A DNA stretch of 64,000 nucleotides from a virus (taxonomy: Duplodnaviria > Heunggongvirae > Uroviricota > Caudoviricetes), in the IMG/VR virus record IMGVR_UViG_3300021399_000096. One strand, 5' to 3'. Below, one piece after another: positions 10,101-62,475 of the stretch. The stretch's first letter is position 1, and every line of letters begins with the position of its first letter. A model generated the notes under the pieces. It saw nothing but the letters and a program-made list of their open reading frames with translations, was not told where the DNA came from and did not search any database. Position numbers and translations under genes: made by a program.

Positions 10101-10478
10101 ATTAAGGATCAAGGTTCTATCATGATTTATGGTAATCAAACAGCTTATCAGGCAATGAAGTCAGACTTTAATAAACTTCATGTTCGTGAAAATCTTAACA
10201 CTGCTGAAATTGAATGTGAGAAAGTTCTTAAGAAATATAACTTTAAATACAATACTCCTGCAGTTCGTGCAAATATTGTTCAACAGCTTACTCCAGTTCT
10301 TTCTGCAATGCAAATTTCTGGAGCATTAGTTAAATATGAAATTATTTGTGATGAAACTAATAACACTCCAGATGTTATTGAAGCAGATGCATGTGTTGTA
10401 GAAATCAACTTGTGGATGAATCACGGAATGGAGAAAATTATTCAAAAGTTCACACTTCAACGTTTATCGGATCAATAA
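7170..10478 (+). CDS. Contractile tail sheath protein, T4 gp18-like, about 1102 aa, with large insertions and two in-frame TAG codons at 7734-7736 and 9381-9383.
   Basis: Three ORF-track pieces (7170-7736, 7773-9383, 9417-10478) lie in one frame and are separated only by TAG. No ATG or RBS follows the TAGs. The C-terminus YEIICDETNNTPDVIEADACVVEINLW aligns with gp18 YRVVCDTTNNTPSVIDRNEFVATFYIQ. Confidence 0.75.
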
Positions 10479-10597: not shown

Positions 10598-11044
10598 TTA
10601 AATATCAATATTTATTAGTGTAGAATTAATACCATATTCTTCAAGTGTTGTAGTCCAATCACATTCTCTCCATTCATATGGAAATGTATACCAGCCTTTA
10701 TTTGCTACATATAAATTTAATTCATAATATTCACTAATTAATTTTTTTAATGAAGGAATAATACCGCATGGTTTATCATCACCATAATAATTACGTGTCA
10801 TAAAACAACTGGGGTGTTCTTGATGAATAATTTCTCCATTTTTAATAACATAAAGGTATGCTGCATCACATGATAAATGATCACTATACACAAAATATAT
10901 TCCATCTCCATTTTCAATAAGTTGTTTTTTAATATCATTTAATGAATCTCTTAATGAAGTTGTCTCATTCAATGCTTTCTTAACTTCTTTAGCCACTGAT
11001 GCCATAATGCTTTCATATAAAGCTTTTTTGCTATCTTTTTTCAT
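10598..11044 (-). CDS. Leader-family paralog: a small protein with a conserved N-terminal motif ending in LNE.
   Basis: The N-terminus MKKDSKKALYESIMASVAKEVKKALNE is shared with the genes at 13234, 13666 and 52695. The ORF is intact and ends in TAA. Confidence 0.55.
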   Translation of the reverse strand: MKKDSKKALYESIMASVAKEVKKALNETTSLRDSLNDIKKQLIENGDGIYFVYSDHLSCDAAYLYVIKNGEIIHQEHPSCFMTRNYYGDDKPCGIIPSLKKLISEYYELNLYVANKGWYTFPYEWRECDWTTTLEEYGINSTLINIDI

Positions 11045-12304: not shown

Positions 12305-13234
12305 TTATCTAAATGTTGTTTTCTTTCCGGAGTTAACTATAGATTCAATATAAGATTTATCATCTCTAGTTAATCTGTTAGTTGGAGATTCTGTAAAGCC
12401 CATATGCCATCCAAGCCATTGAACCAAATCTGCATACTGCTATCCATTATCATAATGTATATAATATTTAAAAGAATAGCGTTTTTCTTCAATATTTACA
12501 CTAATACCATGGTTTCTTAACCATTTGATATGATTTTCTGCTGCAGCCATTGGAGAAGCAAATTCTCCAGCATCATAATTATAAGGAGAATATACAAAAT
12601 CTGTTATAAAATCTCCAGATTTTTCTTCAACAGAAGTAATCTCTTTAAATTCACAGGTTCTTCTCAAAATCATATTAACATCCATTTGAATTTGAGCTTC
12701 AGAACGGGTTTCCCATTTCCCAGATTTATCAATTTCTGCACGAATTGCTTCTGGTGTTGCTGGAATTTCTCCATTATTAATTTTTTGAATTATTTCAAAT
12801 TTAACTCTCTGACGTGGTGTTTTAATTTTATCAATTTGAATATATTGTTTCATTATATTCTATTTGTTCTCATTAACAGAATCATTAACAGAATTCTTAT
12901 TAACTTTTTGAATTGAAATTCTAGGAGATTGCCCAAGAGAATTATCAATATCTAAAACATTTGAATTAACTAATAAAGAAATAACTTTAATAACTTCTTC
13001 ATGAGTTTTGCATGTTACTCTGATAGAGCCAGAACCATAATTGTCAAATGCTGGTAATTTAGAAGATAATGCATCTAATGTTTTCTTATTCATTCCGTCA
13101 CAACGAACTAAATAAATTTCGCCTGAAACTTCTTGGCTAACTGGAGCAATATCATCAACTTCATTCAAAGAACGTTTAACTTCTTTGGCAACTTGCTCCA
13201 TTATTCTATTATATAAATCAGAATTTTTTTGCAT
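12305..13234 (-). CDS. Leader-family paralog of about 309 aa with two in-frame TAG codons at 12860-12862 and 12440-12442.
   Basis: Track ORFs 12860-13234 and 12440-12853 lie in one frame and are separated by TAG plus two codons. The frame continues to the TAA at 12302-12304. The N-terminus MQKNSDLYNRIMEQVAKEVKRSLNEV matches the family leader. Confidence 0.55.
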
Positions 13235-13330: not shown

Positions 13331-13666
13331 TTAAAGATCATCTTTATCTATTGTTCTATAGCATAATGGATATAAAATAGCATTAATTGCAAAAATTGGA
13401 GATACATGATGATCCAAATATACTCCATCAGTAATAGCATTCAACATAACTTGTAACTATCTTTCTGGTAGATTTTCTTTTATTATTTTTGCAATATTTA
13501 ATCCAATTTCATTAATTTCATATCTTGAATCTGGAGATTTATCAATTTTCTATCCACGTTCATTTGTATAAACTTCTGGATATTCACCTTCATTCAATGC
13601 CTTTTTAACTTCTTTAGCAACAGAAGCCATAATGCTTTCATATAAAGCTTTTTTGTCTCTTTTCAT
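13331..13666 (-). CDS. Leader-family paralog of 111 aa with two in-frame TAG codons.
   Basis: Manual translation gives MKRDKKALYESIMASVAKEVKKALNEGEYPEV..., a frame that is open only if TAG is read as sense. The gene was missed by the ORF track. Confidence 0.5.
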
Positions 13667-22903: not shown

Positions 22904-23172
22904 AAATATGCATTTTTGCAATTTTAACGTTTTTTAAGAAAATAAATAAATAAAATACAAATATAATTATCTTTCTGTCTTAATTAATATGAAAGAGTAA
23001 TGTAAGAAACAAAAACACATCTCGTTCATTTTAGGGATTTATTAGTATAGAGAAAATAAATTTACGAAATAGACATATTAAATGATTAAGATTAATTAAA
23101 GATTTGAAAAATGATTATCCGTTACTTTATTATAGGTAACACATTAAATAAAAAATAACTAGAAAAAATAAT

Positions 23173-25080
23173 ATGAAAGTAAACAATCAAAAAGCTACTG
23201 CTAAAAATGCAGAGCAAATGATCAATGAAGCTTGGGCTCCAATGATTACTCGTACAACTGGTGTTAAGGATCCAGAAAAGCTTGCTTGGATGAGTCAACT
23301 TGCTCATAATACAGCTAAATCCTTAAATGAATCTGCTCCTGTAATGGGTGCAAACGACTTCTCTGAATTTGGCGGTGCTTATGCTCCATATAATAACCTT
23401 TATAACACTCTTGGTGTTGGTAACGTAGTTGCTCCATCACGTGTTGCTATGTCTGGTTCTGCATAGGCAGATGATCAAATTCTTGGTTCTGGCGATAAGT
23501 TCCCTGCACTTCTTCCATTAGCAATGAAAGTTGCTGCTAAAACTATTGGTTTTGAACTTGTAAATACTACTCCTCTTGCAGGTCCTAGCGGTGTTCTTCC
23601 TTATATGGACTATGTATACAGTGGTAGCAAACAACCATATGGTGCAACTCCTGCATATGATCCAAAATCTGCAAATCCTGCATATGCTCATAGTGCGCGT
23701 GTTCCAGAAGGTGGTGTAGGCCAAAATCCTGCATTTGCTCTTTATGGTCTTCCTCATGCGTTCAAAGCTACTCTTCTTCCTGCTAACAGCAATGCAGATC
23801 CAATGGTTAAATATAAACATGATCTTGAAGTAGCAGGTTTGAAAGCTGGTGTAGCATTTAGAATTGGTGGTGGACAATCTGGCGCTGGTGCTCTTGAAGT
23901 TGAATTCATTGGTTGGAGCCGTATTGATGGATGCCCAATGTTCAAAGTTGTTAATGGAGCTAAATCTCTTGGTGAATATTTCATGGAAGGTACAGTTGAA
24001 GCCGTTAGTGAAATTGCTACATTGAAACTTCAAGGTCCTAAATTAGTATCTATGTTGGAAGATTCACTTCTTGGTTTCGCTGGTGCTGGTGAAGTTGATA
24101 AAGATGCTTGGGCTGGTACATATCAAGATGGTACTGTTCTTTATGAACCAATGAGTCGTGCAACAGGTGAATTAACTCCTGCCCGTCAAATCTCATTACA
24201 ACTCTTCACAAAGAACATCGCAGTTGGTACAATCCAAGTTGCTTGTGCTGTTACACAAGAACAAGTTACTGACCTTCAAAAACAATGGGGTATTGATGTA
24301 TTGAAGATCGTTGAGAACGCTGGCGTAAACGAACTTTCTCAAACTATCAACCGTCACATCACATCTCGTTTGTTTGCTCTTGGTTGGAAGAACCATGCTA
24401 AGATGGTAGAAGTTGAAGGTCTTGAAGCTTGCTTGAATATGACTTTCCAACCTTGGGATAAAAATGATAATGGTACAGTAGATAATGGAGAAATCCAAAC
24501 TCGTGCATTTGCAATTCCTGAAGGACAATATCTTGAAACTGAACAACGTTATGAATCTCAAAAATTAGTTGAACTTCCTTTAATGCCTATGGGTGTTATT
24601 GAAGGCGCTAACTTCGAGAACCGTGACACTCTTATCAAGAGAATCTTTACAAATATCTTAGCTGCTTCTAACTGGATCCAACAACGTGGTCGTTACGGTG
24701 CTGCTACATTCGTTGTAACTAACATCCGTGTTGCTACATTGTTACAATCTGATGCGCACTATAGCTTCTCACCAATTGAGAATACTGTTAAACAAACTGC
24801 TGGTCAACTTTACCCAATCGGTACTGTATGCGGTTTAACTGTTTACGTTGATCCATTGATGAAGGCTAATGATACTCGTGTATTAGTTGGACGTAAAGGT
24901 GCTAAAGATGAACCAGGTGTTCACTTCTGCCCATACGTAATGGCTGAGGTTGTACGTATCATCGCTGAAGGTACAATGGCTCCAAAACTTATGATTAAAT
25001 CTCGTTACGCACTTGTAGATGCAGGTTTTTATCCAGAAACACAATATATTACATTCTTCGTAGATTGTCGTGGTCTTTAA
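23173..25080 (+). CDS. Major capsid protein, T4 gp23-like, about 635 aa, with one in-frame TAG at 23464-23466.
   Basis: Track ORFs 23173-23466 and 23524-25080 are in the same frame and joined by TAG. FPALLPLAMKVAAKTIGFELVNTTPLAGPSGVL aligns with the gp23 region around IPNLIAFDICGVQPMNSPTGQVFAL. AATFVVTNIRVATLL aligns with the gp23 segment GNFIIASRNVVNVLA. The gene has strong codon bias and GC enrichment. A 270-nt AT-rich leader lies upstream. Confidence 0.75.
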
Positions 25081-40933: not shown

Positions 40934-41236
40934 ATGATACAAATAGATAATAAATATGATTTTAACCAACATGTAAATTATCATATTTGGGAACCATTAG
41001 CACAAAAATATAGTAATTATTCAGGACATATTGTTGGGATAAATTACATAAATATGCAGAATCGTATTACTATAATGTATGGACTTATAGAGGATATTGA
41101 TTGGACAAATGATGAAGAAATAAAATCACTTGGTGTTCATTCTGATTATGAATATTATATGAAATATTGTGTAAATAGTAATGAACGTCCGAATGTTAAA
41201 ATAGATTGGGTTGAAGAAAATGGTATATGGGAATGA
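40934..41236 (+). CDS. Hypothetical protein.
   Basis: Intact ORF. Confidence 0.35.
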   Translation: MIQIDNKYDFNQHVNYHIWEPLAQKYSNYSGHIVGINYINMQNRITIMYGLIEDIDWTNDEEIKSLGVHSDYEYYMKYCVNSNERPNVKIDWVEENGIWE

Positions 41237-42333
41237 AAATGTTAAATTCAAATATTAATGTTAAAGAACTTCGAAAGCGATTTGAATATTTAAAAAATTG
41301 TATCCAATTTGAAGATAAAAAGAATCAAGAAAATGAGCTGAATATGCGAATGCACGATCCAGCTTTTTGGAATGATGCAAAAATGGCAGAAAAAATTTCG
41401 AAAGATTGGAAAAATTTATCTAAATTGATATGTGATATTAATTTAACTGATGATGACATTACATATTTAGAATTATTATCTGATGAAGAATTATCTCAAG
41501 ACTGGGCAAAAACATTATATAATACATGTATAGAAACAATTTCTAAATATGAAATGCAAACCATGCTAAATAAGGACGAGGATAAGATGCCGGCAGTTTT
41601 AAAAATTGTGGCTGGAGCCGGTGGAACTGAAGCACAAGATTGGGCTGAAATGTTAATGCGGATGTATCTATCTTATTTTGCAAATCATAATTTTACAGGA
41701 GAAATAACAAACTATCAAAAAGGTGATACGGCAGGAATTAAAACTGTTTCATTTAATGTATATGGAGATTTTGCATATGGGTATCTTAAAAGCGAAACTG
41801 GAATACACCGATTAGTAAGAGTAAGTCCATATAATGCACAAGGAAAACGTATGACAAGTTTTGCAAGTGTATTTGTGTGTCCATTGGTAGATGACTCCAT
41901 TGAAGTTAATATTAATCCTGCAAATATTACAATGGATACATTTAGATCTTCTGGCGCAGGCGGACAGAATGTTAATAAAGTTGAATCTGGAGTAAGACTT
42001 CATTATAAGTTTATTAATCTATTAACAGGACAGGAAGATGAATTAGTAGCAGAAAGTACAGAATCTAGAGATCAACCTAAAAACAGAGAAATTGCAATGC
42101 AACATTTGCGCAGTCAATTGTATGAATTAGAACTTGAAAAACGACGTCAAATTCAAGCAGAAATAGAAAATAAAAAGATGCCAATTGGCTGGGGTGCACA
42201 AATTAGAAGTTATGTTTTTGATGATAAACGTGTAAAAGATCATAGAACAAATTATCAGACATCTGATGTAAGTTCAGTAATGAATGGGCATATTGATGAA
42301 TTTATTAAAGCATATTTAATGGAAACTAATTAA
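41227..42333 (+). CDS. prfB: Peptide chain release factor 2. The gene is uninterrupted, with no programmed frameshift site.
   Basis: The GGQ motif is in SSGAGGQNVNKVESGVRL. The RF2-type tripeptide region LVRVSPYNAQGKRMTSFASVFV carries an SPY variant of SPF. AGAGGTEAQDWAEMLMRMY and GWGAQIRSYVFDD are also present. Confidence 0.85.
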   Translation: MGMKMLNSNINVKELRKRFEYLKNCIQFEDKKNQENELNMRMHDPAFWNDAKMAEKISKDWKNLSKLICDINLTDDDITYLELLSDEELSQDWAKTLYNTCIETISKYEMQTMLNKDEDKMPAVLKIVAGAGGTEAQDWAEMLMRMYLSYFANHNFTGEITNYQKGDTAGIKTVSFNVYGDFAYGYLKSETGIHRLVRVSPYNAQGKRMTSFASVFVCPLVDDSIEVNINPANITMDTFRSSGAGGQNVNKVESGVRLHYKFINLLTGQEDELVAESTESRDQPKNREIAMQHLRSQLYELELEKRRQIQAEIENKKMPIGWGAQIRSYVFDDKRVKDHRTNYQTSDVSSVMNGHIDEFIKAYLMETN

Positions 42334-51136: not shown

Positions 51137-51499
51137 ATGACAAAGCCAGAAAAAACAATGGAACAATTCGAGAAATTATCTCAAGATAAAAAAGATAGAA
51201 TTGTAAAACATCATCTTGAAAGACTTGAACAAGAAGCTAAGAATATTGAAAAGAGAGAACAATTGTTAGCAGATCCAAACCAAAATAAACTAGCAAAAGA
51301 ACTTCAAAACCGATTGGTTCAATGTTGTATTGACTATATTAAAGAAACTGGAGATACAAATATTGATCGAGTAACATTTACTGTAGATGCATTGCAAGAA
51401 TCTTCAAAATATGGAAGTTGGCAACCATGCACGGATTCTACATGTGAATTAGAAAAATTGACAGATGATGGATATGAAACTATAAGTTTTAGTGCGTAA
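51137..51499 (+). CDS. Hypothetical protein.
   Basis: Intact ORF. Confidence 0.4.
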   Translation: MTKPEKTMEQFEKLSQDKKDRIVKHHLERLEQEAKNIEKREQLLADPNQNKLAKELQNRLVQCCIDYIKETGDTNIDRVTFTVDALQESSKYGSWQPCTDSTCELEKLTDDGYETISFSA

Positions 51500-51502
51500 G
51501 AA

Positions 51503-51536
51503 AAGGTTGAAAAATTAATTCCAACCTTTGTTTTTT
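51503..51536. terminator. Bidirectional terminator hairpin between convergent genes.
   Basis: Stem aaggttg / caacctt flanked by an A-run upstream and a T-run downstream. Confidence 0.55.
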
Positions 51537-52695
51537 AATCTTCTTCATCAAAACACCATTTTAATGTATGAACATCAGATGTTGCATTAAATAGCCGTTT
51601 ATAATCATCAAAATCATATAATGTAATTTTGCTTTTATAAAAACGTCCAACAAAGTTTCCAGCTTTTTGTCTATATACATAATATAATTCTACTTCAGAA
51701 TTATCAAAAAGCTCAAAAGTTACTTTAGCCTAATCTATAGTTCCCTGAGGAACCATTTTATATCTATATCTTTGAGTTCTATATTCTTTTACTGGTGCAG
51801 AATCAATTAATTCAATTTTATAAGAATTAATTTTATTATTCTAATGTATATATTTTTTAAGATTTTCTGGGAATATTTCAGAATGTGCGGCTTCATTAAA
51901 TCCACCCTTTCCGTCATATTCTTGAAGATCATCTATTAATTCTTTTATATCTTCAGGAATATTATATGTTGCATATTTTCTTCTATATGCTTCAAGCTGT
52001 GCATCATTTAATATATTCAACTCATATATTCTATCTTTAAATGCTTTAACTGCTTCTTTCCAACCTAATGTATTTGCAATAATATATCTGGCAACTATTT
52101 TATTATTATCTTTGCATGAATTTGCAACTCTTTCTGGATTTGAATGTCTATTTTTATAATCAATCATCTTCATCCAGTCTCTTACAGTTGGGGCATATTC
52201 ATCAGTATTAGTTGCATCAACTTCCATATCAAATTTTCTTTCGGCATCTGCTAGTGCAAGTTGTAAATCATCATCCTTTTTAAAATTATATTCAACTTGT
52301 ATTTGCTGTATTGTTTGAATTTTAGAAGATATAATTTTAAATTCTTTATGTTTTTTAATATATTCTTGAATTTTCTATAAATCTTCTCTAATATTATAAT
52401 AACCAAACTAAGGAGAGATTGTTAGTCTTATAGGTTGATTTGAATATACCGAACCAATATAAAGAGTCAATTTGCCATAAGGTTCATATGTAAAACTATA
52501 AAATCTATTTGTTAAATTTGGAATAGATGTAAATTTTTTATAAATCCATTCCTGTATAGTCATTTTTAAAAATTGTTTAAGATCTGCTATATCTATATTA
52601 TGTTCAGGCGTGGCAGTTCTATACTCATTAAGAGCGGTTTTTACTTGCTTAGCAACTGACCTCATTATGTTTTCATATAATATATTTTTATTCAT
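51535..52695 (-). CDS. Leader-family paralog of about 386 aa with four in-frame TAG codons at 52408, 52375, 51841 and 51730.
   Basis: Track ORFs 52408-52695 and 51841-52227 lie in one frame. The whole interval 51538-52695 has no TAA or TGA in that frame. The N-terminus MNKNILYENIMRSVAKQVKTALNEY matches the family leader. The C-terminus reads ...HTLKWCFDEED. Confidence 0.55.
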
Positions 52696-52793
52696 AATTT
52701 TAATAATAATTTTTCAATATATTTATTAAAAAATGAAACAATTTTATTATTACTTATAAAATATTTAAACACAAAAAATAATTTAAAGAAAAT

Positions 52794-53121: not shown

Positions 53122-54222
53122 ATGAATTATAATTATCCAAATATAGAAGAATCAAGAAACAAAATAAATGATTTGTTTAATGGAAAATCTATAGTATATT
53201 TTCCAATTGTTTCTATGCAAAACAGAGAAACTGGAAATTATAAATTAGATCAAGATGGAAATGTTAATAGATTTATTACATTTTTTTCAAAATGCAACAC
53301 AATGAAACAATTATATATTACACTTCCATCTAATAAAGAAAGCTGCAAATATTATACAGATTTTACTAAATCTAAAAATAATATTACAACAATTTATAAT
53401 ACTAATTTTGGACAACATGCATTAGATCAAAGAGTAAATAAAGATATTATTACTGATCAATATAATGCAAGTAAAGAAATAATAGATCATTCTGATATTA
53501 TAATAGTTGAAAGTCAAGGATTGGCAAATTTGATATTGTCTAATAATCAAAATAAAACCATTATATATTGGTGCCCAGTTTCAGTAACTAATAAAAAATC
53601 TAGATCATTTATTGAGCAATATCGAGAAATAGATAAAGAACTGTTTAATAAAGTAAATTATATAATTGTTGTATCTCCAGAACAATATGATTATTTGATA
53701 GAATTAGGAATCAATTCAGAAAAAATATTATATTATTATGAATTGATGGATCGAAGTCTCCCAGTTTTTAATCGCTATAATCATATAGATACAATATCAT
53801 CTAAGAAAATAATATATCTTCCATTCAGACTTACAGATGAAGGTTACAAATCTGAACAAATTTTAGATATTTTAGAACAATTATCTATTAAATACCCAAA
53901 TAAATTTGTTATTGTTTATTCGGATCCAAATAATTCAAAATTCGAGAGAGTAACAAAAAATCCAAATTTATATTTTAAAATATCTTCAGACAGAGATACA
54001 TATTATTCATATTTGGATTCCAAAAATGTATTGATTCCATATTTTGAAGATATTAATTATGTTAATCATGCATCAATTCATGAGTTTAATAATGAGCAAT
54101 CTAAATGTACAGTTCTATTAAACAATACTGAATATCATGCATATAATATAAAACGAAAAGATATATTATATATTGACTTCGAAGACCTTTATAAAAATTT
54201 AGAGAAATTTATAAATGAATAA
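53122..54222 (+). CDS. Hypothetical protein, possibly a glycosyltransferase-like Rossmann-fold protein.
   Basis: Intact ORF. It alternates beta-alpha patterns, but no diagnostic motif is seen. Confidence 0.35.
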   Translation: MNYNYPNIEESRNKINDLFNGKSIVYFPIVSMQNRETGNYKLDQDGNVNRFITFFSKCNTMKQLYITLPSNKESCKYYTDFTKSKNNITTIYNTNFGQHALDQRVNKDIITDQYNASKEIIDHSDIIIVESQGLANLILSNNQNKTIIYWCPVSVTNKKSRSFIEQYREIDKELFNKVNYIIVVSPEQYDYLIELGINSEKILYYYELMDRSLPVFNRYNHIDTISSKKIIYLPFRLTDEGYKSEQILDILEQLSIKYPNKFVIVYSDPNNSKFERVTKNPNLYFKISSDRDTYYSYLDSKNVLIPYFEDINYVNHASIHEFNNEQSKCTVLLNNTEYHAYNIKRKDILYIDFEDLYKNLEKFINE

Positions 54223-55246
54223 GAATAAAATAATTTGTGGACCGTGTTCAGCAGAAACTAGAGAACAAATCTTAGAAACTGCTATGTAGCTGACATCTTT
54301 AGGATATTATAATTTTAGAGCTGGTGTATGGAAGCCAAGAACTAAACCAGGCGGTTTTGAAGGTCATGGCGAAGAAGCATTAAAATGGTTGGTAGAAGCC
54401 AGAAAACTATATAATATTATTCCATATGTTGAAGTTGCAAATCCATCTCATGTTGAATTATGTAAAAAATATGGAATTAATCATTTGTGGGTTGGTGCAA
54501 GAACATCATCAGATCCATTTGCCACTCAAGAACTTGCTAATTCATTAGTAGATTTTGATTGTGAAGTTTTAGTTAAAAATCCGGTTTCTGCTGATTTAGA
54601 ATTATGGATTGGTGCAATTCAAAGAATCAAAAATGCCGGTGTAAAAACAGTTAAAGCAATTCATAGAGGATTTTCTGATTATAATGAAAAGATTTATAGA
54701 AATAGTCCAATATGGACAATTCCTCTTGAATTAAAATCAAGAATGCCTGAATTAGAAATATATTGTGATCCATCACATATATCTGGAAATTCTCAATTGA
54801 TTCCAAGTTTAATAAATCAAGCATATAATTATGGATTTGATGGATTTATTATTGAATCTCATTGTGATCCAAAAGCAGCTTGGACTGATGCAAAACAACA
54901 ATTGGTTCCATCTGATATGAATACATTAATTTCAGCATTGGAAGAAAAACCAGAAATTTCTTTGGATGAGTATGATAAATTATTATTAAGTTCATATCGT
55001 GAAACTATTAATAATATTGATACGCAACTAATTAAATTCTTTAGTGAGCGAATGAAAATTAGTAAAGAAATTGGAGAATTGAAAGGTGAACATAATATGC
55101 CAGCTTTACAATATGACAGATGGAAAGAATTGTTATCAAAAAATATTGAGTTAGGTAAAACATATAATTTAGATGAAGAATTTATTTCAAAGATTTGGAA
55201 TATTATTCATGAGGAATCTATTAAAATTCAATCAACACAAAAATAA
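54215..55246 (+). CDS. 3-deoxy-7-phosphoheptulonate (DAHP) synthase, KDO8PS-like class I-beta, fused to a C-terminal chorismate mutase. It has one in-frame TAG at 54287-54289.
   Basis: The N-terminus MNKNKIICGPCSAETREQILETAM[TAG]LTSLG...PRTKPGGFEGHGEEALKWL lies upstream of track ORF 54389-55246 in the same frame. IAGPCS-type motif, CDPSH, and a C-terminal AroQ-class CM segment LIKFFSERMKISKEIGELK are present. Confidence 0.7.
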
Positions 55247-55259
55247 AAAATATTAATAT

Positions 55260-56369
55260 ATGAATTTATATAAAGTAGGATGTAATTTTGATTTTGAACT
55301 AATTAAAATAGTCAAAAATCTAAATGAAAAATATAAAGGCAAAGCCCAAGTAAAAGAATTTTTTGGATCTGATGCGGCACATGAAGAAATCACAGCTAGA
55401 CCAGGTTGGAGACTTCCAGATATTTCAATGACCGATTTAGAAAAATTTGTAAAAGAAGCTAAAGAAGCTGGAATATTGTTTAATTATACAATGAATAGTA
55501 TTCAACCATATGGAAGCAAAATTGAAATGATCAATCATAAACAAGATATTCAAAATTTTGTTAAATGGCTTGAAGAAATTGGTGTATATCGTATTACAAT
55601 TGCAAATCCAATGATGGCATTGTTTATTCGTGAAGTATCTAATATTGAATTGGAATGTTCAACTATAATGCATATTGATACTGTTACTCAACTAAAATAT
55701 TATCATGAGACTTTTGGAATTAATAAATTCTGTTGTTCTATTCTTAAGAATCGTAATAAAAAATTCTTAGAGAATGCTGCAAAATATTGTAATGATAATG
55801 GTTTAATATTTGAGCTGCTTTGTCAAGAATTTTGTGGAGTTGCTGGCGAGGATAAAAATGGTGTACCATATGCAACACATTGTGCTTTTAGAGATTCTTG
55901 TTATTTGTGCCATGCAACTAATAGAACTAAAGATGATTCAATGGCATATAATAATTATCCAATGGGATATTGTATGATGGCCAGAGCTAAGAACGAACAA
56001 AATTGGTTAAGAATGAGATGGATTCGTCCAGAAGATCAAAAAGTATATAATGAAATTGGAATTAATTATTTCAAAGTGAGCGGAAGAACTGGAACTACTG
56101 AATATTTAAAAACCGTATTAGAGGCATACATGTCTGAAAACTTTGACGGAAATCTATTAACATTATGGAAGCCTCTTCAAACAATTTTCTCAAAAGAAGC
56201 AGAATTAACATATCAACATCCAGAATATATTGATAATAAAAAACTAGATGGTTTTATAGATCATTGGTTCAAAGGCGATGGATTTGAATGTGAAAATGAA
56301 ATGTGTGGAGTGACATGTAAATATTGCGAAAATTTTTGGAACTCTCATTTTAAAAAAGATGTTGAATAA
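55260..56369 (+). CDS. Hypothetical Cys-rich protein embedded in the aromatic-pathway cluster.
   Basis: Intact ORF with CQEFCG, HCAFRDSCYLCH and CENEMCGVTCKYCE clusters. There is no confident family assignment. Confidence 0.4.
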   Translation: MNLYKVGCNFDFELIKIVKNLNEKYKGKAQVKEFFGSDAAHEEITARPGWRLPDISMTDLEKFVKEAKEAGILFNYTMNSIQPYGSKIEMINHKQDIQNFVKWLEEIGVYRITIANPMMALFIREVSNIELECSTIMHIDTVTQLKYYHETFGINKFCCSILKNRNKKFLENAAKYCNDNGLIFELLCQEFCGVAGEDKNGVPYATHCAFRDSCYLCHATNRTKDDSMAYNNYPMGYCMMARAKNEQNWLRMRWIRPEDQKVYNEIGINYFKVSGRTGTTEYLKTVLEAYMSENFDGNLLTLWKPLQTIFSKEAELTYQHPEYIDNKKLDGFIDHWFKGDGFECENEMCGVTCKYCENFWNSHFKKDVE

Positions 56370-56375
56370 TTAAAA

Positions 56376-56404
56376 AGAACCATTAAAACTAATGGTTCTT
56401 TTTG
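56376..56404 (+). terminator. Rho-independent terminator.
   Basis: Stem agaaccatt / aatggttct followed by a T-run. Confidence 0.65.
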
Positions 56405-56436
56405 CTATAAAATATACAAAATTAATTAAATTAGTA

Positions 56437-56967
56437 ATGACAAATTTATTTGTTATAGAAGGTCAAGATAGAGCCGGTAAAGATACATTACTTCATGATT
56501 TAGAAAAAATAGGATTAACAATATTTAGTCCAGATACAAGTTATCTTCCAAATTATCATAATGCTGATGAATTTAGAGCTGCATTAAAATTATATTTGGA
56601 AAAACAAACTAATGATATGATTAATCTAAATGTAAAAGATTTATATATTGCAAGGTATCAATTGAGTGAATATGTTTATGCTGAATTATTTAATCGACCA
56701 AATTTGTTTGAAGATTATATTAATGGTATATTAAAGGATCATTTTAAAATCAAAAACATTATTTTATTATGGGATACATATCAAGATTATTTGGATAGAT
56801 TAAAAATGATTAATGATGATTATATTGAATATACTGAAGAAGATTTTAATAAAATTAAAAATTTATATTTAAAATATAAACAACCTAATGATGTTGTTAT
56901 TTATGTAAAAACAAATACAACTCGTGAAGATTTAATAACAAAAGCAAAGTAGATAATATGCATGTAA
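56437..56967 (+). CDS. Deoxynucleoside monophosphate kinase, T4 gp1-like / thymidylate kinase-like P-loop kinase. It reads through a TAG at 56950-56952.
   Basis: VIEGQDRAGKDTL resembles T4 gp1 LSGVKRSGKDT and Tmk EGxDGAGKTT. The start is moved to the ATG after the terminator. Confidence 0.5.
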
Positions 56968-57470
56968 GAACATATGGCCATCATGGTTTTGGATCAAAAT
57001 TATTTGATGGAGAATTATCAGAAAAAACTATTTTAGATTTTTTAAGTAAATTAGCTATTGGTGATTGGACATCTGCTAATAATTTGCCAATTATTGGTTA
57101 TTTAGATGGAATTGTATTAAAGCCACATATATATTCTCAATTTTCAAAACCATATACAAGCAGAAACAAATTGAGAACTGGATTTCATACATTAAAACTA
57201 ATTGGACGCATAATAAATTTGAGAGCTGCCACTGGTTCCTGTACAGAAATAGAATTTGACAATGAAGAAGATGCATTAAAGATATGGCAAATGAAATTTC
57301 CAAATGCAGAAATTTGTACAAATGACAATTATATATTTGGAAATATAATAAATGGAAAGGAAGCTGGATTTAAATTTAATGGAAATATATTTGAAATGCC
57401 AGAATGGGACATTAATGTAATTAAAACCCATGGTTATGCAAGAATATATATTGGAAATGCAATTATCTAA
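56958..57470 (+). CDS. Hypothetical protein.
   Basis: Intact ORF. Confidence 0.4.
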   Translation: MHVRTYGHHGFGSKLFDGELSEKTILDFLSKLAIGDWTSANNLPIIGYLDGIVLKPHIYSQFSKPYTSRNKLRTGFHTLKLIGRIINLRAATGSCTEIEFDNEEDALKIWQMKFPNAEICTNDNYIFGNIINGKEAGFKFNGNIFEMPEWDINVIKTHGYARIYIGNAII

Positions 57471-57486
57471 AATAATTAATTAGAAC

Positions 57487-58473
57487 ATGAATTTTGAAGA
57501 AACAATAAAGAAATATATAAATGAACCAAATACTTTTGTATTTGTGGATCAAAATGTTTATAATTTTTGGAAAGATGGATTAGAATTGAATAATGTAATA
57601 ATTATAAAATCATCTGAAGAAAATAAAACATTAAAAACTATTGAAGAACTTTATAGTAAAGTTATGGAAGTTGGTGCTAATAGAGCATCAACTTTTATTG
57701 GAATTGGTGGAGGCATAGTGACAGATATGGTTGGGTATTTAGCTTCTACTTATATGCGTGGTATAAAATTTAAATTTATTCCAACTACTTTATTAGCAAT
57801 GGTGGATGCGGCAATTGGAGGAAAGAATGGCGTAAATTTCAATGGATATAAAAATATGATAGGAACTATTAACCAACCATCTGATGTTCTTGTATATACA
57901 GAATTTTTAGAAACCTTGCCAATTGAAGAAATATATTCGGCTTTTGGAGAAATATTAAAATATGGAATTGGCTTTGACAAAGATATATTTGATATATTAG
58001 AATCACATACTATTACTGAAATAATAAATGACAAAGAACTTTTATCAGAACTAATAGATAAATGCATTTATATAAAGAAAAATATAGTTAAACAAGATGA
58101 AACTGAGCATGAATTGAATGGGCGTCGTCTTTTGAATCTTGGACATACAATGGGACACGCACTTGAAAAATTCTATTCAGAAAATAAGCAATATTCAGAA
58201 TTAAAACATCATGGTTATGCAGTAATATTAGGATTATATTATATTGCTAGATTTATTGAAGACGAAACATATAAAAAACAGGTTATAAAATTATTAAACA
58301 AATATATTAGTGAAATTGGATTTGAAATTGAAGATATAGAACAATTATACAAAGATTCTATTAAATATATGATTAATGACAAAAAGAAAATAGATAATCA
58401 TTTGGTTAATTTTATAATTCCAATTTCAAAAGGAGAATGTAAAGAAAAAATAATAGATACTAATTCATTATGA
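57487..58473 (+). CDS. aroB: 3-dehydroquinate synthase.
   Basis: GIGGGIVTDMVGYLASTYMRGIKFKFIPTTLLAMVDAAIGGKNGVNF matches the AroB nucleotide-binding and metal-binding region. Confidence 0.8.
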   Translation: MNFEETIKKYINEPNTFVFVDQNVYNFWKDGLELNNVIIIKSSEENKTLKTIEELYSKVMEVGANRASTFIGIGGGIVTDMVGYLASTYMRGIKFKFIPTTLLAMVDAAIGGKNGVNFNGYKNMIGTINQPSDVLVYTEFLETLPIEEIYSAFGEILKYGIGFDKDIFDILESHTITEIINDKELLSELIDKCIYIKKNIVKQDETEHELNGRRLLNLGHTMGHALEKFYSENKQYSELKHHGYAVILGLYYIARFIEDETYKKQVIKLLNKYISEIGFEIEDIEQLYKDSIKYMINDKKKIDNHLVNFIIPISKGECKEKIIDTNSL

Positions 58474-58964
58474 TATTCTTTTTTATAGGATATATGGGCT
58501 GTGGAAAATCATATGTGGTTAATAAACTTGCTAATGATTTTAAAGATGCCAAAGTTATTGATATGGATTCAGAAATTGAAAAGCAAGAAGGAAAATCAAT
58601 AACTGAAATATTTGAAACAAAGGGTGAAAAATATTTTAGGAAGAAAGAAACTAAATTTATAGAATCTTTAATTGGATCTAAACCACAAGAAATAATATTT
58701 GTGGCAACTGGCGGTGGAGCACCAATTAAAAATATAGATTTAATGAATGAGATAGGAACTACAATTTATATAAAACTAACCCCAGAAGAAATATATAATA
58801 ATTTAAAGAATGATGATTTAAACAAAAGGCCATTACTAAAAAATCTTAGTGATGAAGAACTTATGAATAAAATCAAAAATGATTTAAAGAAACGAGAAAA
58901 GTATTATAAAAAAGCTAAATACACATATGAAGAAACCAAAAATTCTAATTTTAAATGGCCCTAA
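58470..58964 (+). CDS. aroK: Shikimate kinase.
   Basis: Walker A FFIGYMGCGKS, with ATGGG in the LID region, and a small size of 164 aa. Confidence 0.7.
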   Translation: MIFFFIGYMGCGKSYVVNKLANDFKDAKVIDMDSEIEKQEGKSITEIFETKGEKYFRKKETKFIESLIGSKPQEIIFVATGGGAPIKNIDLMNEIGTTIYIKLTPEEIYNNLKNDDLNKRPLLKNLSDEELMNKIKNDLKKREKYYKKAKYTYEETKNSNFKWP

Positions 58965-60756
58965 TCTAAATTATTTAGGAAAACGAGAACCGGATATATA
59001 TGGCAAAGGATCTTTTATTGATTATTTGAATAATCTTAGAAATCAATATAAAGATATAGATATTAAATATTTCCAAAATAATATTGAGGGAGAATTAATC
59101 AATAAACTTTATGAAGTGAATGAATTTAAAAACTATATTGGTGTAGTTTTTAATGCTGGAGCATATACTCATACATCAATTGCACTTCATGATTGTATAA
59201 AGGCAATTAGTATTCCAGTTATTGAGGTTCATATATCTAATGTAGCAGCCAGAGAAGATTATAGAAAGGTTTCTTATTTGTCTGATGTTTGTAAAGGAAC
59301 AATAACTGGATTTGGTTATGATTCATATAAATTAGGAATTGAGTATTTAGCTAGTAAAATAGATAAGAAAATATATAAACCACTTGAATTAGTAATGCCA
59401 ACATCTAAAAGTGAATTACAAAGAGCATTATTAATTGGAGCTTGTGAAAATACTAAAGTATCTGTTTTAGCATTAAATATAAATTTTCCATTATGTGATG
59501 ATGTATATTCATGTTTAAATACATTATCAAATATGGATTGCAAATCTGCTTTATTAGAAAACAGAATTGTAATTCATGGTGGAAATATTATCAATAGCGG
59601 AAAAGAATATAATGTAAATGTTGGAGAATCTGGAACAACTCTTAGAATGCTAATTGGCATTATGATATTTTCTAAATCTAAAATTACTATTCATCGTGAA
59701 GGAACTTTGGCAAAAAGAAATATTGCATATGCAGAAACATTGGCAAATACTTTTGGAGCTAAATTAGAATATAATGGAGATGATGTAATATTATATGGCT
59801 TACAACATGAAGAGAATAAAAGTACTTTTGGAGATATTTTATCTAAACATGAATTTATATTAGATGGTTCAAAATCATCTCAATACATTTCAGGAATTTT
59901 AATTGGATTTACATTTTGTAATTTATTCAAAGAAATAAATTTATCAATCAAAAATGTAGTATCTCGAGAATATATTGATATAACAAAGACAATGTTGCAA
60001 ACAAATAATAACATCATCAATATTGATAAAAGTGATAATAATGATATGAATTTATATTTGCGTTTTGATATAGAATCAATTGCTCAATCAAGATACAAAC
60101 AAATTATAATAAATCCAGATTTTAGTTCTATAGCGGCAATTACTACAGCAGCATATGGATTAAAAGTTGACAATTTTAAAATAACTCAAAACCCATCTAT
60201 AGGATATTTGCCAGATTTATCTATGTGTGAACAACCAGATAAAATATTTTTAGGAATTTTAAAAGAACATAATTTATTAAATATTGAACTTAATGGATTT
60301 ATGAAAACAGAAATGGAGATAACATATAATGGACAGAATGAAACTCCATTTGAGATATCAATTAAACAATTCCCAGATTTATTTCCATATTTGGCAACTA
60401 TTGCAATATTATCTAATAGAGGCATATATATAATTCATGATATAGATAGATTAGCTAATAAAGAAAGTAATAGAGCTTTAGCTATATTAAATGAATTTAA
60501 TAAATTTGGTGCTAATTGTACTATTGAAAATAATGATTTTATCATTAAACCATTAAACAAAGAATTATTAATTCCAGACAATTATATAATTAATACATAT
60601 AATGATCATAGAATTGCAATGGCTTTAGCAATATTAATATTGTCAATAACTAATAATTTTGACAAAATAAAATTTGATAATGAAAAATGTCTGAATAAAA
60701 GCTACCCATCTTTTATGGAAGATCTGAAAAAATTATTTGAATACAAAAATGCATAA
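58927..60756 (+). CDS. aroA: Bifunctional type II 3-dehydroquinate dehydratase (N-terminal) fused to EPSP synthase (C-terminal).
   Basis: ILILNGPNLNYLGKREPDIYG and HISNV are AroQ type II motifs. GESGTTLRMLIG, the KSSQYISGILIG-like segment and NDHRIAMALAIL are EPSP synthase motifs. Confidence 0.8.
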   Translation: MKKPKILILNGPNLNYLGKREPDIYGKGSFIDYLNNLRNQYKDIDIKYFQNNIEGELINKLYEVNEFKNYIGVVFNAGAYTHTSIALHDCIKAISIPVIEVHISNVAAREDYRKVSYLSDVCKGTITGFGYDSYKLGIEYLASKIDKKIYKPLELVMPTSKSELQRALLIGACENTKVSVLALNINFPLCDDVYSCLNTLSNMDCKSALLENRIVIHGGNIINSGKEYNVNVGESGTTLRMLIGIMIFSKSKITIHREGTLAKRNIAYAETLANTFGAKLEYNGDDVILYGLQHEENKSTFGDILSKHEFILDGSKSSQYISGILIGFTFCNLFKEINLSIKNVVSREYIDITKTMLQTNNNIINIDKSDNNDMNLYLRFDIESIAQSRYKQIIINPDFSSIAAITTAAYGLKVDNFKITQNPSIGYLPDLSMCEQPDKIFLGILKEHNLLNIELNGFMKTEMEITYNGQNETPFEISIKQFPDLFPYLATIAILSNRGIYIIHDIDRLANKESNRALAILNEFNKFGANCTIENNDFIIKPLNKELLIPDNYIINTYNDHRIAMALAILILSITNNFDKIKFDNEKCLNKSYPSFMEDLKKLFEYKNA

Positions 60757-61714
60757 TAGTTTTGGACAAAATATTAAAATAGAAATTTATGGAGGTTCAC
60801 ATACTAAAACTTTAGGAATTAAAGTATATGGACTTCCAAAAGATTTTACAATAGAATTATCAGAATTTGAATTTGATTTAAGCAGGCGGCGTCCAGGTGC
60901 ATTAGGGACCACTAATAGAATTGAATCAGACATTCCGTGTTTAATATGGAATGATGATAATTTACAGATAGAATTTTTGAATGAAAACATTGATGATAGT
61001 GCATATTTGAAATTTGTGGATCATCCACGTCCATCTCATGCAGATTTAGTTCAATATAAAAAATATGGAACAGAATATAATATGTATGGTGGAGGAATGG
61101 CAAGTGGAAGAATGACATTGCCATTAGTTGCTCTTGGAGTAATATGTAAAAAACTATTAAAAGAAAAATATCCAAATATTTCTATAGATGCAAATATTAT
61201 TCAAATCAAAGATGAAACCAATCCAGATAATTTTGAATCTATTATTTCAAAGGCAATTAAAGAAAAAACTTCATTGGGTGCTATTATCAAATGTGTAGTT
61301 TCTAATATGCCAAAATATGTTGGAGAACCATTTTTTGATTCATTAGAAAGTATTATATCTCATTTAGTATTTAGTATTCCGGGAATTAAAGGAATAGAAT
61401 TTGGAGATGGATTTGGTGGAGTTCTAAAAACTGGAATAGAACGAAATGATTTGATTATTGATAAAGATGGAAAAACATTAACAAATAATGAAGGTGGAAT
61501 AAATGGCGGAATCAGTAATGGAATGCCAGTAGAATTTAATGTAGCAGTAAAACCTACTGCATCTATATATAATCCACAAGATACTTTTAATTTCAAAGAT
61601 AATAAAATAGAATCATTACAAATAACTGGACGTCATGATATTTGTTTTGCAAGACGGGTTTCGGTAATTATTGAAGCCATTACAGCATATGCAATATTAG
61701 AATTAATTAGTTGA
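60737..61714 (+). CDS. aroC: Chorismate synthase.
   Basis: FGQNIKIEIYGGSHT, DLSRRRPG, GGGMASGR and ITGRHDICFA match AroC blocks. Confidence 0.75.
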   Translation: MNTKMHNSFGQNIKIEIYGGSHTKTLGIKVYGLPKDFTIELSEFEFDLSRRRPGALGTTNRIESDIPCLIWNDDNLQIEFLNENIDDSAYLKFVDHPRPSHADLVQYKKYGTEYNMYGGGMASGRMTLPLVALGVICKKLLKEKYPNISIDANIIQIKDETNPDNFESIISKAIKEKTSLGAIIKCVVSNMPKYVGEPFFDSLESIISHLVFSIPGIKGIEFGDGFGGVLKTGIERNDLIIDKDGKTLTNNEGGINGGISNGMPVEFNVAVKPTASIYNPQDTFNFKDNKIESLQITGRHDICFARRVSVIIEAITAYAILELIS

Positions 61715-62475
61715 TTATGAAGAAATATGGTTTAATAGGAAAAAATATTAGTTATTCATTATCTAAAGAAATATTTGATAATAATTGTTTTAAAGATAGT
61801 GAATATTTTTTATATAGCATTTCAGAAGATGAAATCACTAAAGAATTTTTAAATCAGTTTAATGGACTGAATGTAACGATTCCATATAAAAATGTGGTAG
61901 GACAATTTCTTGATGAAATTAGAATCCCAAAAATAAATGGAGTTGAATTTAATGCAATTAATTGTATATCTAATGAAAATGGAAAATTGATTGGATATAA
62001 TACTGATGTATATGGAATAGAAAAAACATTAGACCAATTTATCAAATCTGATAAAAAAGCATTAATATGTGGAAATGGAGGAGCATCTGAAGCACTTCAA
62101 TATTATTTTACTAGTAATAATATAAAATATATTGTGGTAACTAGAAGTGAATATACTCCAATTTCATGTTTTGGCTTTAGTATAACATATGATGAATTGT
62201 TTGAATGCAATTCAGAGTTTTTCGAAAATATCAATATTGTTGTTAATGCAACTCCAGTAGGAACAATAAATTATCTAGGCAAAGTAAATATTCCATATGA
62301 AAAATTTAAAAATATTGATATTGCATTTGATTTAGTTTATAATCCATGGGAAACAGAATTTTTAAAAACTTTTAAAGATTTAGGAAAACAAATAATAAAT
62401 GGGTACACAATGCTTCAAAATCAAGCATTAAAGTCATATAAAATTTGGAAATTGCTGAAAAACAAATCCATTTAA
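61711..62475 (+). CDS. aroE: Shikimate dehydrogenase.
   Basis: The N-terminus YGLIGKNISYSLSKEIF is a substrate-binding motif. GYNTDVYG and GNGGASEA (NADP-binding) are present. Confidence 0.65.
   Translation: MIMKKYGLIGKNISYSLSKEIFDNNCFKDSEYFLYSISEDEITKEFLNQFNGLNVTIPYKNVVGQFLDEIRIPKINGVEFNAINCISNENGKLIGYNTDVYGIEKTLDQFIKSDKKALICGNGGASEALQYYFTSNNIKYIVVTRSEYTPISCFGFSITYDELFECNSEFFENINIVVNATPVGTINYLGKVNIPYEKFKNIDIAFDLVYNPWETEFLKTFKDLGKQIINGYTMLQNQALKSYKIWKLLKNKSI

What the first reader, a model, noticed from the sequence alone, without database searches (positions are those of the whole stretch)
51535..52695. Fourth leader-family member, far from the cluster, with a large cargo domain and four TAG codons
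This gene has the same N-terminal leader as the 10.6-13.7 kb cluster, LYENIMRSVAKQVKTALNEY. It is 386 aa long and again sits on the minus strand inside a + strand region. It ends at a bidirectional hairpin shared with the convergent upstream gene. Its dispersal suggests the leader is a portable module attached to different cargos. Standard-code callers split it into two unrelated-looking ORFs and leave a gap.
Basis: seen in the sequence. Interest (0 to 1): 0.6.

Follow-up and report, generated by a model that had tools for sequence, protein, structure and literature searches.

The report
Capsid-targeting-like leader on megaphage gene
This is one real 386-residue gene of a Lak-related gut megaphage that reads TAG as glutamine, and its 24-residue N-terminal leader is shared by about a thousand unrelated small proteins and most likely sends them into the phage head before being cut off.

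Summary
Window 51535-52695 (-) is one 386-codon gene with four in-frame TAGs. It is antiparallel to its neighbours and ends at an 11-bp hairpin shared with the convergent gene. Its N-terminus matches exactly three other ORFs in the window. TAG is glutamine here: orthologues swap TAG and CAG at three aligned codons. A syntenic orthologue has no TAG at all. Identity is higher after the first TAG than before it. The window also encodes RF2. The phage's closest named relatives are Prevotella Lak megaphages, where TAG=Gln is already published, so the recoding is not new. The leader is the interesting part. It is almost invariant up to L-N-E, and sequences diverge completely right after it. It heads 1174 protein clusters at 50% identity, nearly all without a known domain. 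Among 50,697 phage records it occurs only in Lak genomes, at 7-10 places each. All four window genes carry a T4-late-promoter-like AATAAATA box that is also found before the tail sheath gene. The gp23-family capsid protein keeps an LNE near its N-terminus. Relatives encode a T4 gp21-type prohead protease with [LIVM]NE-rich scaffold tails. My best reading, inferred and not demonstrated, is a T4-style capsid targeting propeptide removed at LNE. The cargo's function is unknown.

The parts
51535..52695 (-). Leader-cargo gene, 386 aa when TAG is read as Gln; the stop codon is TAA
   Evidence: It has 30 homologues, most of them full-length at 395 aa. A TAG-free syntenic orthologue exists.
52624..52695 (-). 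Leader, residues 1-24 (MNKNILYENIMRSVAKQVKTALNE), ending in L22-N23-E24, the proposed prohead protease site
   Evidence: The leader profile hits this ORF with E 1e-17. Entropy jumps from 1 bit or less to more than 3 bits right after E across 87 distinct cargos. The AF2 model shows a detached helix 3-27, with pLDDT below 50 at residues 18-32.
52408..52410 (-). In-frame TAG, codon 96
   Evidence: The orthologues have TAG (L003) or TAT (L001) at this column.
52375..52377 (-). In-frame TAG, codon 107
   Evidence: TAG is present in all three recoded orthologues at this column. The TAG-free orthologue L006 aligns GAA (Glu) here.
51841..51843 (-). In-frame TAG, codon 285
   Evidence: TAG is present in the window, L001 and L003, and AGT in the TAG-free orthologue L006.
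51730..51732 (-). In-frame TAG, codon 322
   Evidence: The aligned codon in L003 is CAG (Gln).
52715..52728 (-). Late-promoter-like box TAATAAATATATTG, 33 nt before the ATG
   Evidence: The same box sits 28-51 nt upstream of the tail sheath gene, g3086, 22175, 25268, 29653 and all four leader genes. Its association with in-frame TAG has Fisher p 2.6e-6.
51502..51529 (.). Bidirectional terminator-like hairpin between the convergent genes 51137-51499 (+) and 51535-52695 (-)
   Evidence: RNA fold: 11-bp stem, -12 kcal/mol, z -4.4. T-runs are present on both strands.
10598..11044 (-). Leader-family paralogue, 148 aa, no TAG
12305..13234 (-). Leader-family paralogue, 309 aa, 2 TAG
13331..13666 (-). 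Leader-family paralogue, 111 aa, 2 TAG
   Evidence: Its truncated form, P0047, is in public databases.
23173..25080 (+). Major capsid protein of the T4 gp23 family. It has a conserved S-L-N-E|S at residues 50-54 (nt 23320-23334), the proposed maturation site with the same motif as the leader
   Evidence: Pfam PF07068, E 1e-34. An (L/V)NE is kept near the N-terminus in 16 of the 17 relatives shown, down to 54% identity; in the 17th the printed excerpt ends at LNED.
41227..42333 (+). Release factor 2 (prfB), part of the TAG-reassignment machinery
   Evidence: NCBIfam TIGR00020, 415 bits against a cut-off of 370. Pfam PCRF plus RF-1.

Best explanation
The gene encodes a late-expressed protein of a Lak-related, TAG=Gln-recoded huge myovirus. 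I propose that its first 24 residues form an amphipathic helix that works like the capsid targeting sequence (CTS) of the phage T4 internal proteins. In this model the helix binds the scaffolding core of the assembling prohead, so the cargo is enclosed. A T4 gp21-type prohead protease then cuts after L22-N23-E24. The mature cargo, starting at Y25, stays in the head and is presumably ejected into the host with the DNA.

Shown here: it is one gene; TAG means Gln; the leader is a portable N-terminal module with a sharp boundary at LNE; it is co-regulated with virion genes through a shared promoter-like box and through TAG use; the capsid is of the T4 type; and relatives carry a T4-type protease.

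Inferred, not shown: binding to the scaffold, cleavage at LNE, presence in virions and ejection. The biochemical activity of the 362-residue cargo is unknown. By analogy with T4 IPI it could be an early-acting effector, for example against host defence, but that is speculation.
For: 1. One gene, with TAG read as Gln. Orthologues exchange TAG and CAG at aligned codons 48, 130 and 322/331. Identity to L003 is 89.5% before the first TAG and 90.7% after it. For the TAG-free syntenic orthologue L006 the figures are 27.5% and 52%. RF2 is encoded in the window. In Lak phages TAG=Gln, a CTA suppressor tRNA and RF2 are published (PMC6784885).
2. The leader is modular. A profile of it finds 1174 representative proteins with E<=1e-3, and the leader starts at residue 1 in about 143 of the best 150. 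Across 87 distinct cargos, 22 leader positions have about 0-1 bit of entropy (3 of them 1.6-2.4 bits), and every position after E has more than 3 bits. Of 91 cargos of at least 100 aa, only 1 has a solid Pfam domain.
3. Selection acts on the peptide, not the DNA. g10598 and g13331 show 0 amino-acid changes and 6 synonymous codon differences in 19 codons.
4. The clade has a T4-type head. The MCP matches Pfam Gp23 with E 1e-34. Lak phages and relative L024 encode a gp21-like protease, with E 4e-24 to the annotated PTm1 protease and the His and Ser columns invariant.
5. LNE recurs where T4 has L/I-x-E sites. MCP propeptides of the relatives keep (L/V)NE at about residues 45-75. The protease N-termini read LTLNE|A and LVLNE|S. 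The L024 protease-scaffold protein has 10 [LIVM]NE sites where 1.2 are expected. In T4 the CTS is a 10-19-residue propeptide, cleavage follows L/I-X-E, and the cargos are diverse (PMC9026906; PMC3012670).
6. Late co-regulation. The AATAAATA box lies 28-51 nt upstream of all four leader genes, the tail sheath gene and other TAG-bearing genes; 8 of 9 such ORFs carry TAG against 6 of 61 others. The same box precedes a leader gene in a relative. Recoded codons mark late and structural genes in Lak and other recoded phages.
7. In the model the leader is a detached, low-confidence helix, and the region around LNE has pLDDT below 50, so it would be accessible.
Against: There is no proteomic, structural or genetic evidence that any leader protein is in a virion or is cleaved; Lak-like phages are uncultivated. 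The prohead protease is not in the 64-kb window, so its presence in this genome is inferred from relatives. No gp55-type late sigma factor was found in the window or in the Lak-like loci held, so the promoter assignment rests on resemblance and on which genes the box precedes. The leader has no significant sequence similarity to the T4 CTS and is longer, 24-27 residues against 10-19. The residue after the proposed cut is variable (Y, D, G and others), whereas known T4 sites mostly have small residues there. A three-residue motif is weak evidence by itself. The L and E of LNE were fixed by the anchoring pattern used for the entropy analysis, although 114 of 120 hits matched that pattern.
Confidence: 0.6

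Rival explanations
1. The leader is kept in the mature protein. It would act as a common adaptor or oligomerisation helix, for example docking many different proteins onto one phage or host partner or onto a membrane surface, with no capsid packaging and no cleavage.
For: The leader is a regular amphipathic, lysine-rich helix. It is followed by an acidic, low-complexity linker in many family members. Nothing here demonstrates cleavage.
Against: This does not explain why conservation stops exactly at a Glu in an L-x-E context. Nor does it explain why the same LNE occurs in the MCP propeptide region, at the protease N-terminus and at 10 sites in a scaffold tail. It also leaves unexplained why the genes share the promoter box and TAG use of virion genes.
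Confidence: 0.17
2. The conserved feature is a nucleic-acid element, such as a translation-initiation or regulatory RNA region, or the result of recent duplication or gene conversion. On this view it is not a functional peptide.
For: The upstream promoter-like box and the first codons are conserved together.
Against: The paralogues differ mostly at synonymous sites. One pair has 0 amino-acid changes and 6 synonymous ones, and nucleotide identity is only 67-89% while the peptide is kept. More than a thousand diverged proteins keep the peptide.
Confidence: 0.03
3. The leader is an export or secretion signal, or a signal that targets the proteins to some compartment of the infected cell.
For: It is N-terminal, shared by many unrelated cargos and followed by a possible processing site.
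Against: The leader has no hydrophobic core. Charged residues occur every 2-4 positions (KKALYESIMASVAKEVKKALNE), and there is no lipobox or twin-arginine motif (read directly from the sequence). The family occurs only in T4-type-capsid phages of the Lak clade among 50,697 phage records.
Confidence: 0.05
4. The locus is two or more separate genes. Translation would stop at the first TAG, giving a 95-aa product, and the downstream ORFs would be independent genes or non-coding.
For: Standard-code ORF calling gives this picture. No suppressor tRNA is present in the window.
Against: TAG and CAG interchange at three aligned codons, and conservation is higher downstream of the first TAG. A TAG-free full-length orthologue sits at the same syntenic position. 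RF2 is encoded in the window. In-frame TAG also occurs in the tail sheath gene, the MCP gene and a 644-aa gene with 12 TAGs. None of the 70 TAA/TGA-delimited ORFs kept would need TAG as its stop: 58 end in TAA and 12 in TGA.
Confidence: 0.01

Closest known systems
Capsid targeting sequences (CTS) of phage T4 internal proteins IPI, IPII, IPIII and Alt, removed by the gp21 prohead protease
   Same: Both are short N-terminal propeptide-like leaders shared by otherwise unrelated, fast-evolving small proteins. Both end in an (L/I)-x-E motif. Both phages have a gp23-family capsid, and the clade has a gp21-type protease. The genes belong to the late, virion-gene regulon.
   Different: There is no detectable sequence similarity to MKTYQEFIAE. 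The leader is longer, 24-27 aa. The family is far larger, with 7-10 or more places per Lak genome and 1174 clusters in metagenomes. The genes are dispersed and transcribed against their neighbours. Targeting and cleavage have not been tested here.
Propeptide-bearing inner-body and ejection proteins of phiKZ-like giant phages (phiKZ, 201phi2-1, SPN3US)
   Same: These are huge myoviruses with many head-internal proteins that are processed after Glu by a diverged gp21-like protease. Paralogous families and redundant cleavage sites are described for them (PMC9026906).
   Different: Their cleavage motif is S/A-x-E. Their propeptides are not one near-invariant leader. There is no sequence relation to them, and Lak-type phages are a separate clade.
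TAG-to-glutamine recoding (code 15) in Lak megaphages and other gut phages
   Same: In-frame TAG is concentrated in late and structural genes, RF2 is phage-encoded, and TAG behaves as Gln.
   Different: Nothing differs materially; this part is already known. The window phage is not one of the published Lak genomes. Its MCP is about 62% identical to theirs, and its closest contigs are 262-380 kb.
Cargo-loading peptides of encapsulins
   Same: Both are short peptide tags that load diverse cargo into an HK97-fold shell.
   Different: As far as I know, encapsulin tags are usually C-terminal, are not cleaved and are unrelated in sequence. This is only a conceptual analogy.

Membership tests
T4-type capsid targeting sequence / internal (ejected) head protein | An N-terminal leader shared by proteins whose mature parts are unrelated | tested here: met
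   87 distinct cargos follow a near-invariant leader. There are 1174 clusters. Almost none of the cargos share a Pfam domain.
T4-type capsid targeting sequence / internal (ejected) head protein | The leader ends at a prohead protease site, (L/I)-x-E followed by the cut | tested here: met
   LNE is found in 85 of 87 leaders and LLE in the other 2; the L and E were fixed by the anchor pattern, which 114 of 120 hits matched. The same motif occurs in the MCP propeptide and in the protease-scaffold proteins. Only the motif was tested, not the cleavage.
T4-type capsid targeting sequence / internal (ejected) head protein | The phage has a gp23-type capsid and a gp21-type prohead protease | tested here: inconclusive
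   A gp23-family MCP is in the window. The protease was found in Lak genomes and in relative L024, but it is not in the window and no contig of this exact phage was recovered.
T4-type capsid targeting sequence / internal (ejected) head protein | The leader is necessary and sufficient for incorporation into proheads, and the protein is present in virions and ejected | not testable with these tools
   This needs virion proteomics or reporter fusions. The phages are uncultivated.
T4-type capsid targeting sequence / internal (ejected) head protein | Sequence homology to the T4 CTS (MKTYQEFIAE) | tested here: not met
   A tblastn search with the leader against 50,697 phage records hits only Lak genomes and no T-even phage. 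I therefore file it as working like a CTS, not as a homologue.
Genetic code 15 (TAG=Gln) gene of a Lak-type phage | In-frame TAG aligns with Gln codons in orthologues, and the reading frame is conserved beyond it | tested here: met
Genetic code 15 (TAG=Gln) gene of a Lak-type phage | Phage-encoded RF2 and a CTA-anticodon suppressor tRNA | tested here: inconclusive
   RF2 is present. No tRNA was found in the window or in 24 related loci. A suppressor tRNA is reported for complete Lak genomes (PMC6784885).
Lak megaphage clade | Hallmark proteins are closest to Prevotella phage Lak | tested here: met
   The MCP is 62% identical over 99% of its length to Lak-A, -B and -C, and the next best named phage is at 29%. 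The leader is found only in Lak records. The genome size of this particular phage is unknown; its closest contigs are 262-380 kb.

The most novel reading that the evidence does not exclude
The leader is not a capsid-packaging propeptide. Instead it would be a new kind of universal address tag by which Lak-type megaphages route about a thousand different small effectors to one cellular or viral machine, such as a phage-specific compartment, an export route or a shared activating protease. That would be a targeting system with no described counterpart in phages.
Probability: 0.12. Interest if true: 0.85.

Novelty: new variant of a known kind. Interest (0 to 1): 0.55.

Why it matters
Lak-type megaphages are widespread in human and animal guts, but they are uncultivated and most of their genes have no assigned function. 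If the leader is a capsid targeting signal, one 27-residue profile labels about a thousand otherwise unannotatable proteins as candidate head-packaged, host-injected effectors. In T4 that class includes anti-restriction proteins. The prediction can be tested directly in existing metaproteomes by looking for peptides that begin right after LNE. The leader would also be a candidate tag for loading foreign proteins into very large capsids. In practical terms, standard-code gene callers cut these genes into pieces, and public databases are full of 30-70-aa leader stubs that should be merged.

Tried and rejected
1. Pfam and PHROGs scans of the four leader proteins found nothing significant.
3. blastn of the locus against the phage collection gave no match.
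4. The literature search for the leader string returned only unrelated word matches. The Lak diversity paper does not mention leaders, paralogues or a protease.
5. I tried to recover the prohead protease of this exact phage. It is not in the window or in loci L001-L023. Two IMG/VR scans were saturated by other T4-like phages. The genome-contig scan returned only a 49%-identical relative.
6. No gp55 late sigma factor was found in the window or in the Lak-like loci.
7. No suppressor tRNA was found in the window or in 24 related loci.
8. I rejected the nucleotide-element and recent-duplication idea, the signal-peptide idea (from composition) and the two-gene reading.

Full report
**1. What is at the coordinates.** Window 51535-52695 on the minus strand is an ATG-to-TAA frame of 386 codons. 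It contains four in-frame TAGs, at codons 96, 107, 285 and 322. Under the standard code it breaks into a 95-aa ORF and a 128-aa ORF, and the last third is left uncalled. Residues 6-25 are LYENIMRSVAKQVKTALNEY. A profile built from the four leaders hits exactly four of 987 TAA/TGA-delimited ORFs in the window: 10598-11044, 12305-13234, 13331-13666 and 51535-52695. All four score E about 1e-18 and all lie on the minus strand of an otherwise plus-strand region; the next best hit has E 0.37. Between this gene's stop codon and that of the convergent gene 51137-51499 lies an 11-bp hairpin at 51502-51529, with -12 kcal/mol and z -4.4.

**2. One gene, with TAG read as glutamine.** The full-length translation has 30 homologues, most of them 395 aa and covering 100% of the query.
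- The DNA of three orthologues shows that they carry in-frame TAGs too, partly at other positions. TAG in one genome aligns with CAG in another at codons 48, 130 and 322/331, and with TAT at codon 96.
- Identity to orthologue L003 is 89.5% before the first TAG and 90.7% after it.
- The syntenic orthologue P0025/L006 has no TAG at all and translates as one 351-aa protein under the standard code. Its identity to the window protein is 27.5% before the first TAG and 52% after it.
- The invariant core of the family, residues about 140-290, lies downstream of the first two TAGs.
- The window encodes release factor 2: TIGR00020, 415 bits against a cut-off of 370.
- None of the 70 retained TAA/TGA-delimited ORFs would need TAG as a stop.

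The finder's refutation condition, termination at 52408, is therefore not met.

**3. What genome this is.**
- The window carries a T4 gp23-family major capsid protein at 23173-25080 (Pfam PF07068, E 1e-34). From its N-terminal sequence, the 1102-aa ORF at 7170-10478 looks like a tail sheath protein; I did not test this with a profile.
- It also carries SbcCD, a primase, a split family-B polymerase and an RNA ligase.
- The MCP is 62% identical over 99% of its length to all 15 Prevotella phage Lak records. The next named phage, Tenacibaculum PTm1, is at 29%.
- The closest uncultivated contigs, at 85-88% MCP identity, are 262 and 380 kb.

For Lak phages, TAG=Gln, a CTA suppressor tRNA, RF2 and TAG use in structural regions are published (PMC6784885). 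Recoding of late genes is a general theme (Borges et al. preprint). The four TAG codons are therefore an expected property of this clade, not a discovery.

**4. The leader is a very large, clade-specific, portable module.**
- A profile of the leader searched against 1.84 billion representative proteins finds 1174 with E<=1e-3 and 174 with E<=1e-10. The match starts at residue 1 in about 143 of the best 150.
- Among 87 hits with different downstream sequence, the 22 leader positions have about 0-1 bit of entropy (three of them 1.6-2.4 bits), and every position after the Glu of LNE has more than 3 bits. The L and E were fixed by the anchor pattern, but 114 of 120 hits matched it.
- Of 91 leader proteins of at least 100 aa, Pfam recognises one methyltransferase and PHROGs essentially nothing.
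- Cargo length ranges from about 30 aa (P0062, a genuine 58-aa gene) to more than 400 aa.
- A tblastn search with the 27-aa leader against 50,697 phage records hits only the 15 Lak genomes, at 7-10 places each.
- The cargo of this particular gene belongs to a small family of 35 proteins, all from such contigs. Two distant members, P0026 and P0027, carry the conserved core behind different N-termini. Leader and cargo are therefore separable.
- Many database entries are 30-70-aa stubs truncated at the first TAG.

Over the 19 core codons, g10598 and g13331 have identical peptides but six synonymous codon differences. The finding's gene differs from them by 7 synonymous and 4 amino-acid-changing codons, at 74% nucleotide identity. 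The paralogues are old, and the peptide, not the DNA, is under selection. This rules out recent duplication or gene conversion and rules out an RNA element.

**6. Regulation.** All four leader genes have [T/A]AATAAATA, mostly extended to ...TATTG, 33-40 nt before the ATG. From my own knowledge, the T4 late promoter is TATAAATA. In the window the same box lies 28-51 nt before the tail sheath gene, the 12-TAG gene at 3086, and the genes at 22175, 25268 and 29653. Eight of nine ORFs with the box contain in-frame TAG, against 6 of 61 without it (Fisher p 2.6e-6). The box also precedes a leader gene in a relative. The leader genes therefore belong to the regulon of virion genes. I did not find a gp55-type sigma factor in the sequences held, so the late-promoter label is an inference.

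**7. Why a capsid targeting propeptide is the best reading.** In T4, the internal proteins and Alt carry 10-19-residue N-terminal propeptides that bind the scaffolding core. The gp21 protease removes them after L/I-x-E. The mature parts are unrelated to each other, and the CTS has been proposed as an evolutionary device for packaging varied proteins (PMC9026906; PMC3012670). The following parallels hold here.
- (a) The capsid is gp23-type.
- (b) Lak genomes and relative L024 encode a gp21-like protease. It scores E 4e-24 against the annotated PTm1 protease, the His and Ser columns are invariant, and the Lak and L024 proteins are 60% identical.
- (c) These proteases begin with LTLNE|A or LVLNE|S, much as T4 gp21 has LIE near its N-terminus. 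The L024 protease-scaffold protein has 10 [LIVM]NE sites where 1.2 are expected.
- (d) The MCP N-terminal region keeps (L/V)NE at about residues 45-75 in relatives down to 54% identity. In the window it reads S-L-N-E|S at residues 50-54, a position comparable to the T4 gp23 cut, which from my own knowledge follows residue 65.
- (e) The leader's conservation ends exactly at LNE.
- (f) The AF2 model shows the leader as a detached helix, with pLDDT below 50 around the motif.

Each item is circumstantial, but together they point the same way. Binding, cleavage, virion location and ejection are all inferred. I put this reading at about 0.6.

**8. The cargo.** The model of orthologue P0001 has pLDDT 79. 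It shows an alpha/beta domain at residues 36-136, a highly conserved helical domain at 142-285 and a long beta-hairpin domain at 289-362. No sequence or fold search gave a convincing relative, so its activity is unknown.

**9. Verdict.** The recoding is already known for this clade. The leader family appears undescribed: the literature searches for its sequence found nothing. It is best classed as a new variant of the T4-type capsid-targeting-propeptide principle, greatly expanded in Lak-type megaphages. It is moderately interesting now. It would become more so if metaproteomics confirms processing at LNE.

Noticed in passing
window 54215-62475 (+): The window holds a complete shikimate pathway. 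It consists of a DAHP synthase-chorismate mutase fusion with one in-frame TAG, aroB, shikimate kinase, a DHQase II-EPSP synthase fusion, chorismate synthase and shikimate dehydrogenase. The block is absent from the syntenic position of relatives L001, L003 and L006. The library holds no paper that links shikimate with Lak phages.
   Followed up: partly
L024:5-2116 (+) and L024:5578-9693 (-), flanking the protease gene at L024:2186-4576: These are two large head-module proteins built of 3 and 8 repeat units. All but the first unit of the larger protein are preceded by (L/I/V)-x-E|S, and every unit begins with a conserved LGLSKKVQKKH-like motif. They look like polyproteins cut by the prohead protease, with a different, internal leader.
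   Followed up: partly
L107:14073-15323 (-) (Prevotella phage Lak-C1): This 416-aa helical protein lies 5 kb from the protease gene. Its N-terminus, QKALYNAIMESV..., shares the first half of the leader and then diverges. It may be a core or scaffold protein related to the origin or the docking partner of the leader.
   Followed up: no
window 17199-18746 and 18779-20308 (+): The family-B DNA polymerase is encoded as two ORFs in inverted order. The C-terminal polymerase part comes first and the N-terminal exonuclease part second.
   Followed up: no
window 3086-5020 and 5025-5798 (+): These two adjacent late genes, with 12 and 5 in-frame TAGs, share a C-terminal domain (…LGLPSGTLWCKYNLG…) and a repeated LALDDFDDEE…KSKQV(TAG)NRDYTKEYLDLM segment. 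g5025 starts with a different short helix, KQILEAINRGI. They may be tail-fibre or host-recognition paralogues.
   Followed up: no
proteins P0151, P0073 and P0223 (leader-family hits): Some family members carry two leaders in one ORF or an internal half-leader (…KEVKKSLNE…). This suggests either polyproteins with internal cleavage sites or fused neighbouring genes.
   Followed up: no
window 22940-23172: The late-promoter-like box for the major capsid gene lies about 230 nt upstream of its ATG, against 28-51 nt for the other genes. This implies a long 5' leader or an unrecognised small ORF.
   Followed up: no
window 25268-27424 (+) and 56392-56967 (+): A TAG sits at the very end of these ORFs: it is the last codon before TAA in the first, and 5 codons before the stop in the second. 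It is ambiguous whether TAG is read through there.
   Followed up: no
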